Position numbers and translations under genes: made by a program. DNA of 60,209 bases, the filler included, from Squatina squatina (Eukaryota): NCBI GenBank assembly GCA_031763465.1. It is 3 parts of 3 records of this genome, joined end to end, with 100 filler letters (N's around TTAATTAATTAA, not from the genome) between each part and the next. Parts side by side here need not be neighbours in the genome. Positions count along the whole stretch, not along the records: positions 19,575 to 32,709 come from JARFOE010000073.1; 2 more parts are not named here. The stretch is one strand, 5' to 3'. Shown piece after piece: positions 22,612 to 23,548 of the stretch (position 1 is its first letter; each line of letters opens with the position of its first letter). Under the pieces are notes generated by a model that saw nothing but the letters and a program-made list of their open reading frames with translations, ran no database searches and had not been told where the DNA came from.

Positions 22612-23435
22612 TCAACAATACTCTTCAGTTAAACTACACCAAGATCGAGCAGTTGTGCTCAGGTGCAGCCTACTGCCAGTTCATGGACATGCTCTTCCCC
22701 GGCTCCATCGCCCTGAAGAAAGTGAAGTTTCCAGCCAAGCTGGAGCACGAGTACATCCAGAACTTCAAGCTGCTACAGGCGGCCTTCAAGCGGATGGACG
22801 TGGACAAAATCATCGCGGTGGACAAGCTGATGAAAGGCAAGTTCCAGGACAACTTCGAATTCCTGCAGTGGTTCAGAAAGTTCTACGACGCCAACTATGA
22901 CGGCAAGGCCTACGACCCAGTGACTGCCCGCCAGGGGCAGGAGGCCGGCCCACCGCCCGGCCCTCACCAGGTCTTCCACAAGCCCAAGAAGACGCTCAGC
23001 ACGCTGAGTGCCGCCACGGGTCACAGCAGCACCGCCCTGGACAGGAGGGCCCTCAGGTCGTCGTCGTCAGGCACCTACCTGCTGCGCTCCAAGGCAGCCG
23101 CAAAAGGCGGCAGCGGGGCAGCGGCAGCGCCAAGTGCAGCGCATAAGAATGCCGCGACTGCCCCGGAAAAGTCCAACATGGCGGGAAACGGCGACACACA
23201 TGTGGCCGAACTGGCCGAGCAGGTGCAAACCTTGAAGACTGACCTGGTGGAGCTGGAAAAAGAAAGAGACTTTTACTTTGGGAAGCTGAGGAACATTGAG
23301 GTGATCTGCCAGGAGAACCAACAGGAGGACATCATGGTGATTCAGCAGGTGGAGAAGGTGCTCTACGCAGTCGATGACGGATTCACTCTACGGGAGGCTG
23401 CCAACGAGCAACCAGAAGAAGCAGAGGAATATTAA
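22612..23435 (+). CDS. MAPRE1-like: Intronless microtubule end-binding protein (MAPRE/EB1 family), probable retrogene; 5' end lies in a gap
   Basis: Uninterrupted ORF: CH domain ([31 protein letters not shown]...[13 protein letters not shown]), linker, EBH coiled coil ([21 protein letters not shown]) and C-terminal EEY*. No stops or frameshifts. High GC3. The ORF-track start at 22401 crosses a 100-N gap and is not real. Confidence 0.93.
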
Positions 23436-23542
23436 AAAGGGCAAGCCCATTGACCTCCGTCAACAAGGGCAAGCCCACTGGCCTCCACACTTATTGCAAA
23501 TCAGCGGCTAGAGGGGGAAGCCCCCTCATTTTCTGCAAAGTT

Positions 23543-23548
23543 AATAAA
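23543..23548 (+). terminator. Polyadenylation signal of the MAPRE-like gene
   Basis: AATAAA ~108 nt after the stop codon, followed by T/GT-rich sequence. Confidence 0.6.

What the first reader, a model, noticed from the sequence alone, without database searches (positions are those of the whole stretch)
22612..23548. Intact, intronless, divergent EB1-family gene: probable functional retrogene
Seen: ~274 contiguous codons covering the CH domain, linker, EBH domain and EEY tail, with no intron, stop or frameshift, GC3/CpG-rich against an AT-rich background, and an AATAAA with no genomic poly(A) tract. Known: vertebrate MAPRE1-3 have several coding introns across this span. Inference: an old retrocopy kept under purifying selection, i.e. 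a possible additional EB paralogue in this lineage. Intact CpG-rich retrogenes are often germline-expressed.
Basis: partly seen in the sequence, partly recalled or inferred. Interest (0 to 1): 0.75.

Follow-up and report, generated by a model that had tools for sequence, protein, structure and literature searches.

The report
Ancient intronless shark EB1 gene copy
This shark gene is an intact, intron-free extra copy of the microtubule tip-tracking gene EB1, shared by sharks, rays and a chimaera, so cartilaginous fishes probably carry a fourth working EB protein that genome databases list but no paper we found describes.

Summary
In detail: 273 open codons plus stop at 22614-23435, CH and EB1 domains, EEY tail, GC3 0.77, AATAAA without an A-tract. 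The first 24 codons fall in a gap. The gene is not a young private copy. It sits in a 12-row clade (support 100/98) of 'MAPRE1-like' proteins from 11 other chondrichthyans, including a chimaera, separate from their canonical MAPRE1. It crosses six inferred family intron positions uninterrupted and includes MAPRE1's cassette exon. It lies between spliced TAF15-type and USP32 exons, outside the MAPRE paralogon; linkage to USP32 recurs in two other sharks. Best reading (0.7): a retrocopy of long-isoform MAPRE1 mRNA, fixed over 400 million years ago, constrained but faster-evolving, encoding an EB-type plus-end tracker with 12 of 13 SxIP-pocket residues kept. dN/dS, expression, testis bias and orthologue gene structures could not be tested. 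Open rival (0.2): an older paralogue, possibly the fourth whole-genome-duplication copy, that lost its introns later. New member of a known kind; moderate interest.

The parts
22612..23435 (+). Single uninterrupted coding stretch of the EB1-family paralogue (part-codon, 273 codons, TAA); about 24 N-terminal codons missing in the gap
22614..22931 (+). CH (microtubule-binding) domain, codons 1-106; 100/106 identical to the Heterodontus orthologue, 87/106 to whale-shark MAPRE1
23013..23096 (+). Linker segment (codons 134-161) matching in position and length the cassette exon of long-isoform MAPRE1
23008..23097 (+). In-frame 90-nt GT..AG stretch matching the segment absent from Heterodontus isoform X2: candidate exitron, weak donor, may be an RT artefact
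23184..23384 (+). Coiled coil and EBH domain (codons 191-257) with SxIP pocket; 12 of 13 pocket positions identical to canonical EB1
23424..23432 (+). C-terminal EEY motif (CAP-Gly binding in EB1; role from general knowledge)
23543..23548 (+). AATAAA followed by G/T-rich sequence, no A tract: likely own poly(A) signal
   Evidence: function inferred
22323..22344 (+). Acceptor-like site (pyrimidine tract plus CAG), 167 bp before the gap: possible end of a 5' UTR intron; on a separate contig
22512..22611 (.). Assembly gap of nominal size holding the expected start codon
20022..20326 (-). Neighbour: two spliced TAF15-type (FET family) exons, 20236-20326 and 20022-20151
25840..32443 (+). Neighbour: four spliced USP32 coding exons (25840-25967, 28496-28614, 30005-30159 into gap, 32312-32443); first coding exon not in the assembly
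23793..24296 (+). 24-bp tandem array (21 copies) on the same contig as the ORF, showing the contig is genomic

Best explanation
A spliced mRNA of MAPRE1 (EB1), the long isoform with the linker cassette exon, was reverse-transcribed and inserted near the head-to-head 5' ends of TAF15 and USP32 in an ancestor of cartilaginous fishes, and has been kept as a protein-coding gene. Shown: the intact continuous ORF, its clade, its neighbours, its conserved domains. Inferred: retroposition as the route; transcription borrowed from the TAF15/USP32 promoter region, perhaps through a 5' UTR intron, ending at its own AATAAA; and a protein that works like EB1: the CH domain binds growing microtubule ends, the coiled coil dimerises, the EBH pocket binds SxIP proteins and EEY binds CAP-Gly proteins. 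Faster evolution and clade-specific residues in the coiled coil/EBH suggest a tuned partner set or a restricted tissue; testis is a guess by analogy only.
For: Clade of 12 rows, 100/98, with Callorhinchus P0058 basal, inside a MAPRE1 group at 90/87; grouping with MAPRE3 rejected, p 0.024; moving the chimaera protein to shark MAPRE1 narrowly rejected, p 0.041. Family intron positions inferred from break points in named records: of 35 records, 6 start at one CH position, 1 at another, 5 resume at the coiled-coil start and 8 end at the EBH end, plus the two cassette borders from long/short isoform pairs; the ORF crosses all six. The linker matches the whale-shark MAPRE1 cassette in 4 of 7 clade members at 0/2000 shuffles. 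Neighbours are TAF15-type and USP32 exons with normal splice sites, not the DNMT3/ASXL/KIF3/DTN genes that flank MAPRE1-3 (PMC3721406 passage; PMC6976628 passages). USP32 and the orthologue lie on contigs of identical length in Heterodontus (65,175,702) and Heptranchias (41,663,488); paralogue and MAPRE1 lie on different contigs in Rhincodon and Stegostoma. Identity to the Heterodontus orthologue is 100/106 in CH, 60/67 in coiled coil/EBH, 62/83 in the linker. Under simulated neutral change of 0.1 per site 4 of 2000 copies stay intact, at 0.2 none. SxIP pocket 12 of 13 and E/D-E-Y tail 12 of 12 kept. The orthologue model folds onto EB1 CH, rmsd 2.1-2.5 A. Nine orthologue records lack linker segments with nine different boundaries, several crossing a parental junction with neither end on it, as expected if the linker is one exon there too.
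Against: No DNA of any orthologue or of the parent was available, so dN/dS and their intron status are untested. The branching among this clade, shark MAPRE1 and bony-vertebrate MAPRE1 is unresolved (76/64; AU p 0.29 and 0.30), and grouping with MAPRE2 is not rejected (p 0.12). The chimaera protein lacks exactly the cassette segment (codons 136-161) and shows no cassette match, which a single long-isoform retro event does not predict without a later loss. Cassette homology was not significant at 1% in any of 21 tests with the Hypanus, Callorhinchus and lizard cassettes. The ORF contig begins at a gap, so its place between TAF15 and USP32 rests on scaffolding; neither promoter nor start codon is seen. 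No expression data were seen.
Confidence: 0.7

Rival explanations
1. The clade is an older, originally intron-bearing paralogue (possibly the missing fourth copy from the two vertebrate genome duplications, sister to MAPRE1) whose retrocopy replaced it, or which lost its introns, in elasmobranchs; the chimaera gene may still have introns. The protein would work the same way.
For: Tree shape ((MAPRE2, MAPRE3), (MAPRE1s, this clade)); shark plus bony MAPRE1 as one clade is not rejected, p 0.30; the chimaera protein lacks exactly the cassette, like an exon-skipped isoform; humans have three of four possible paralogous regions (PMC3721406 passage).
Against: The best tree puts the clade next to shark MAPRE1, though weakly; the locus is outside the MAPRE paralogon, so two events are needed; no non-chondrichthyan member among the 120 listed of 3524 hits or the 120 listed of 2344. 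No lamprey, hagfish or shark MAPRE3 sequence was in the tree.
Confidence: 0.2
2. The orthologues in other sharks are ordinary multi-exon genes and this is a young processed copy of that gene, intact only because it is recent.
For: Orthologues are annotated with isoforms X1-X4, which implies annotated introns; one window substitution is unusual (Pro at the position of human Gln64); most cartilaginous-fish retrocopies are species-specific (95.7%, 10.64898/2026.06.26.734816 passage).
Against: A young retrocopy would not be expected on the same chromosome neighbour (USP32) as its parent's orthologues in two sharks; no change at sites invariant in all 26 other rows (one search printed none); end branch 0.08 equals that of Heptranchias; isoform deletions have unshared borders.
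Confidence: 0.07
3. The contig is cDNA carry-over or a misplaced or foreign fragment.
For: The assembly is fragmentary (43 gaps), the contig starts at the ORF, and its GC3 is far above the neighbours'.
Against: The same contig continues past AATAAA without poly(A) into a 24-bp tandem array; nearest relatives are shark proteins and the USP32 link recurs in other sharks.
Confidence: 0.03

Closest known systems
RefSeq/UniRef 'microtubule-associated protein RP/EB family member 1-like' of Heterodontus francisci, Heptranchias perlo and nine other chondrichthyans
   Same: Orthologues: 85% and 82% BLAST identity to the two closest, one clade, linked to USP32 in two species.
   Different: They are automatic annotations with no description as a separate paralogue or retrogene in the searches made; the window protein has Ala where all 11 have Ser at the position of EB1 Ala248.
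MAPRE1 / EB1 (vertebrate; PDB 2r8u, 3gjo, 1txq)
   Same: Domain order, CH fold, SxIP pocket, EEY tail, and the cassette-exon segment of the long isoform.
   Different: No coding introns; different chromosome neighbourhood; faster evolution (10 of 12 non-independent relative-rate tests p<0.05); six clade-diagnostic residues, five in coiled coil/EBH; Thr249 position variable.
Drosophila Mst27D and the testis EB1-family genes CG15306, CG32371, CG2955
   Same: EB1-family duplicates, one reported to have arisen by retroposition (PMC10359004 passages).
   Different: Independent insect events; Mst27D has lost EB1 similarity outside the CH domain and binds Nup358, whereas this protein keeps EBH and EEY. 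Testis expression is shown there, untested here.
Exitrons in intron-lost genes ('splicing memory', e.g. human HSPA1A)
   Same: A GT..AG in-frame stretch that nearly matches an ancestral alternatively spliced exon (PMC4484396 passages).
   Different: Here seen in one species' annotated isoform only; borders are not shared across species and counts are near chance; reverse-transcription artefacts give the same picture (PMC8240250 abstract and passages).

Membership tests
EB / RP-EB (MAPRE) family | N-terminal EB-type CH domain | tested here: met
   orthologue model matches EB1/EB3 CH; first 24 residues are in the gap
EB / RP-EB (MAPRE) family | Coiled coil plus EBH domain with SxIP pocket | tested here: met
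   Pfam EB1 above cut-off; 12 of 13 pocket residues listed in PMC5686072 and PMC12695022 passages kept
EB / RP-EB (MAPRE) family | Acidic tail ending EEY/F | tested here: met
   EEY in the window, E/D-E-Y in 12 of 12 clade rows
EB / RP-EB (MAPRE) family | Tracks growing microtubule plus ends, dimerises | not testable with these tools
   inferred from conserved residues only
MAPRE1 orthologue (canonical) | Groups with shark canonical MAPRE1 as the same gene | tested here: not met
   separate clade; four species have both genes among the hits
MAPRE1 orthologue (canonical) | Lies by DNMT3B/ASXL1/KIF3B/NOL4L | tested here: not met
   neighbours on the 13-kb scaffold are TAF15-type and USP32 exons; expected neighbours
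Retrogene | Parental coding introns absent | tested here: met
   continuous across six positions inferred from protein break points; parent's genomic structure itself not seen, human exon layout recalled
Retrogene | Unlinked to the parent | tested here: met
   different contig lengths in Rhincodon and Stegostoma; indirect
Retrogene | Poly(A) remnant and target-site duplication | tested here: not met
   longest A run 4; no flanking repeat pair found in 21245-24296, 5' end in gap; loss expected at this age (general knowledge), so not counted against
Retrogene | Intact ORF under purifying selection | tested here: inconclusive
   protein-level proxy positive; dN/dS not computable, start codon unseen
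Retrogene | Transcribed from a recruited promoter | not testable with these tools
   RefSeq isoform names suggest transcript support in orthologues (inference); acceptor-like site at 22344
Whole-genome-duplication ohnologue | In a paralogous block, shared intron positions | tested here: not met
   a relocated ohnologue is not excluded
Exitron | Reproducible in-frame GT/GC-AG splicing inside a coding exon | tested here: inconclusive
   2 of 9 orthologue deletions map on GT..AG in the window (chance 399/5000 each); 1 of 9 matches the cassette ends (chance 95/5000 each)

The most novel reading that the evidence does not exclude
This is 'EB4': the fourth EB copy from the vertebrate genome duplications, lost in bony vertebrates and surviving in cartilaginous fishes only as a relocated single-exon gene whose intron-bearing parent is gone (or persists only in chimaeras). 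In the boldest form it has also rebuilt the parent's linker-length switch as an exitron over the old cassette exon, a natural case of 'splicing memory' (that add-on alone about 0.1; both together about 0.02).
Probability: 0.13. Interest if true: 0.65.

Novelty: new member of a known kind. Interest (0 to 1): 0.42.

Why it matters
Vertebrates are described with three EB genes; a conserved fourth in cartilaginous fishes changes the family's history and gives a natural variant of the central microtubule-tip hub with an intact pocket but a retuned rim and coiled coil. Class-wide old retrogenes appear rare in this group: 95.7% of its retrocopies are species-specific and 15.7% keep an ORF (10.64898/2026.06.26.734816 passages). 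It is directly testable with existing shark genomes and RNA-seq. It is not a new kind of system: retrogenes and EB1 duplicates are well known, and the orthologues are already in databases.

Tried and rejected
Structure prediction of the window protein itself gave mean pLDDT 49, probably because the first CH helix is missing; not used. The full-length orthologue model (pLDDT 64, best of five at 51-64) was used only to confirm the fold. tblastn found no USP32 first, third or later-than-sixth coding exons (numbering recalled) and no other TAF15 exons, so the promoter arrangement could not be fixed. Pfam on 110 stop-free frames (most of the longest 150 of 171 listed, plus two chosen by eye) gave 0 families; Rfam gave 0 matches. 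Linker RNA folding is only mildly stronger than shuffles (z -1.64, 13 of 200), so it neither supports nor excludes a template-switch artefact. A conserved exitron was considered and not adopted: borders differ among species and counts are near chance. Complex prediction was not run: an EBH dimer would pass by likeness to solved structures. Tree rows: 46 named proteins, one isoform per clade species; unnamed records and most insect records were left out. Literature searches found no paper on this paralogue or on TAF15-USP32 adjacency; 10.1101/2022.08.15.502524 (passages) and 10.64898/2026.06.24.732306 (passages) do not treat it. The library lacks most subscription papers, and the supplementary retrocopy tables of the two genome-project preprints were not seen and may list this locus. 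Accessions and cluster members of the orthologues, and viral and metagenome collections, stayed unchecked.

Full report
Observation. The frame from 22614 to the TAA at 23433-23435 is open for 273 codons. It matches Pfam CH and EB1 above their cut-offs and human EB1 at E 6.6e-91, starting at EB1 residue 25. The 24 codons that begin every orthologue fall in the 100-N gap at 22512-22611. GC is 0.572, GC3 0.77 and CpG o/e 0.685, against 0.404 and 0.361 for the window; 1 of 216 other gap-free windows reaches that GC and 5 of 216 that CpG count, and the six neighbouring spliced exons have GC3 0.20-0.51. AATAAA lies at 23543-23548 with G/T-rich sequence behind it and no A run over 4 in 200 nt. The same contig runs on into a 24-bp tandem array, so it is genomic.

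Relatives. Of 3524 hits, 120 were listed; the first 15 are 'MAPRE1-like' or hypothetical proteins of sharks and batoids (66-85% identity), ahead of the canonical shark MAPRE1 proteins (58-63%). A maximum-likelihood tree of 46 named proteins and 269 columns puts the window protein in a 12-row clade (100/98) with 11 other species and the chimaera protein P0058 at its base; shark MAPRE1, bony MAPRE1, MAPRE2 and MAPRE3 each form their own group, and the clade joins the MAPRE1 groups at 90/87. AU tests reject union with MAPRE3 (p 0.024), do not reject union with MAPRE2 (p 0.12) and narrowly reject the chimaera protein as a separate offshoot of shark MAPRE1 (p 0.041). The order among clade, shark MAPRE1 and bony MAPRE1 is open (p 0.29, 0.30). 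The chimaera branch is long and flagged as unsure. If it belongs, the gene predates the holocephalan-elasmobranch split, about 400 million years (date recalled). The nearest rows are Heterodontus and Heptranchias, so the window is from a shark, perhaps a squalomorph (inference).

Neighbourhood. Two 12-nt stop-in-all-frames linkers at 19475-19574 and 32710-32809 bound a 13-kb scaffold of ten contigs; sequence outside is probably from other scaffolds (inference). Inside it are four USP32 coding exons on the plus strand, 93-100% identical to the two shark USP32 proteins, with AG at all four starts and GT at the three ends that are sequenced, and two minus-strand exons whose only well-matching hit is a FET protein closest to TAF15 in the PDB. 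The 5' exons of both genes are missing from the assembly, so the EB gene lies between their 5' ends, in an early TAF15 intron, or in USP32 intron 1; the data cannot choose. USP32 and the orthologue are on contigs of the same length in Heterodontus and in Heptranchias, the only 2 species where both values were shown, which implies the same chromosome. Human MAPRE1-3 lie in three paralogous blocks with ASXL, DNMT3, DTN and KIF3 genes (PMC3721406, one passage), and teleost mapre1b lies by dnmt3b, commd7 and nol4l (PMC6976628, passages). This locus is not in such a block.

Intron loss. No parental genomic DNA was available, so intron positions were inferred from proteins. Among 35 named MAPRE records aligned to one MAPRE3, 6 begin at one CH position, 1 at an earlier one, 5 resume at the start of the coiled coil and 8 end at the end of EBH; these agree with the human exon layout as I recall it. 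Long and short MAPRE1 isoforms differ by a 25-28-residue cassette that maps on window codons 134-161. The ORF crosses all six positions without a break. Its linker aligns ungapped with the whale-shark cassette: 0 of 2000 shuffles score as high for 4 of 7 clade members, about 1% for two more, none for the chimaera; with the Mustelus cassette 3 of 7 are under 1%; with three other cassettes 0 of 21 are. So the elasmobranch copy most likely came from long-isoform mRNA. The chimaera protein lacks exactly that segment, which is unexplained and keeps rival 1 alive.

Constraint. dN/dS could not be computed. Identity to the Heterodontus orthologue is 100/106 in CH, 60/67 in coiled coil/EBH and 62/83 in the linker. 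In a simple simulation, 62 of 2000 neutral copies stay intact at 0.05 changes per site, 4 at 0.1 and 0 at 0.2 (rates assumed). The clade evolves faster than MAPRE1: 10 of 12 non-independent relative-rate tests give p<0.05, and whale shark versus chimaera identity is 62% against 90% for MAPRE1.

How it likely works. The 13 SxIP-contact residues named in PMC5686072 and PMC12695022 (passages) are kept at 12 positions in the window; Thr249 is Val, and it varies across the clade, while Ala248 is Ser in all 11 orthologues but Ala here. The tail is E/D-E-Y in 12 of 12. Six residues mark the whole clade against the 10 canonical rows, five of them in coiled coil/EBH. A model of the full-length Heterodontus orthologue has the EB layout and matches EB1 CH structures. 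From the established biology of EB1, the protein should track growing microtubule ends as a dimer and recruit SxIP and CAP-Gly proteins, perhaps with shifted affinities; this step is inferred. For transcription, the borrowed promoter is inferred from position. One acceptor-like site ends at 22344, 167 bp before the gap; about 0.04 such sites are expected in that distance and 0.32 in the whole contig, so a 5' UTR intron is possible, though the site was noticed before the test was set. Testis expression is only an analogy with Drosophila EB1-family duplicates (PMC10359004, passages).

Isoform oddity. Nine orthologue records lack linker pieces with nine different borders. This suggests the linker is one exon in those species and that the gene is transcribed there (both inferences). 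The Heterodontus X2 deletion maps on an in-frame GT..AG at 23008-23097, within two codons of the old cassette borders, which recalls the 'splicing memory' idea (PMC4484396, passages). But 2 of 9 GT..AG matches and 1 of 9 cassette matches are near chance (399 and 95 of 5000 random deletions), the donor is weak, and reverse-transcription artefacts mimic this (PMC8240250, abstract and passages). It is a lead only.

Comparison and novelty. It works like EB1 and passes the sequence tests for the EB family; it is not the canonical MAPRE1 orthologue; it meets the testable retrogene criteria except age-eroded marks. Orthologues are annotated automatically, but ten literature searches found no description of the paralogue; subscription papers and preprint supplements (10.64898/2026.06.26.734816 and 10.64898/2026.06.24.732306, passages only; MAPRE is not named in either main text) were not seen. 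Verdict: real, a new member of a known kind, best explained as an ancient functional MAPRE1 retrogene of cartilaginous fishes (0.7); interest 0.42, rising to about 0.65 if it proves to be the fourth duplication-era EB.

Noticed in passing
window 19475-19574 and 32710-32809: 12-nt stop-in-all-frames linkers flanked by 44 N each: the window is a concatenation of at least three scaffolds, so gene order across them is not biological (meaning inferred).
   Followed up: yes
window 20022-20326 (-) and 25840-32443 (+): TAF15-type and USP32 exons face away from each other within about 5.5 kb of assembled sequence: a candidate head-to-head promoter region; no paper on this adjacency.
   Followed up: partly
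window 22348-22511 (+): An ATG in good context just after the acceptor-like site opens a 54-codon frame into the gap; no Pfam match. Possible upstream ORF or chance.
   Followed up: partly
window 23793-24296: 24-bp tandem array, 21 copies; the unit resembles part of a common shark retroelement end (recalled, not tested).
   Followed up: partly
window 23434-23486: A 25-nt direct repeat, 88% identical, just after the stop codon in the 3' UTR.
   Followed up: no
window 4600-5800 and 57500-58600: Two CpG-rich stretches (o/e up to 0.85 and 1.12) with no identified exon; possible promoters or repeats on other scaffolds.
   Followed up: no
window 39600-42800, 41276-41701, 44778-45029, 58714-58875: Broken frames that look like LINE, Penelope-type and Myb/SANT transposon remnants (names recalled); no Pfam hit at E 0.01.
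   Followed up: partly
proteins P0017-P0027 versus P0002-P0016 and tetrapod MAPRE1: Elasmobranch paralogues and tetrapod EB1 share CH residues (Ser-Ile/Val-x-Leu and Ile-Gln-Asn) that most shark canonical MAPRE1 rows and the chimaera paralogue lack: likely convergence, or a hint of different orthology.
   Followed up: partly
window 7300-8500: Long purine-rich low-complexity repeat tract giving many spurious frames.
   Followed up: no
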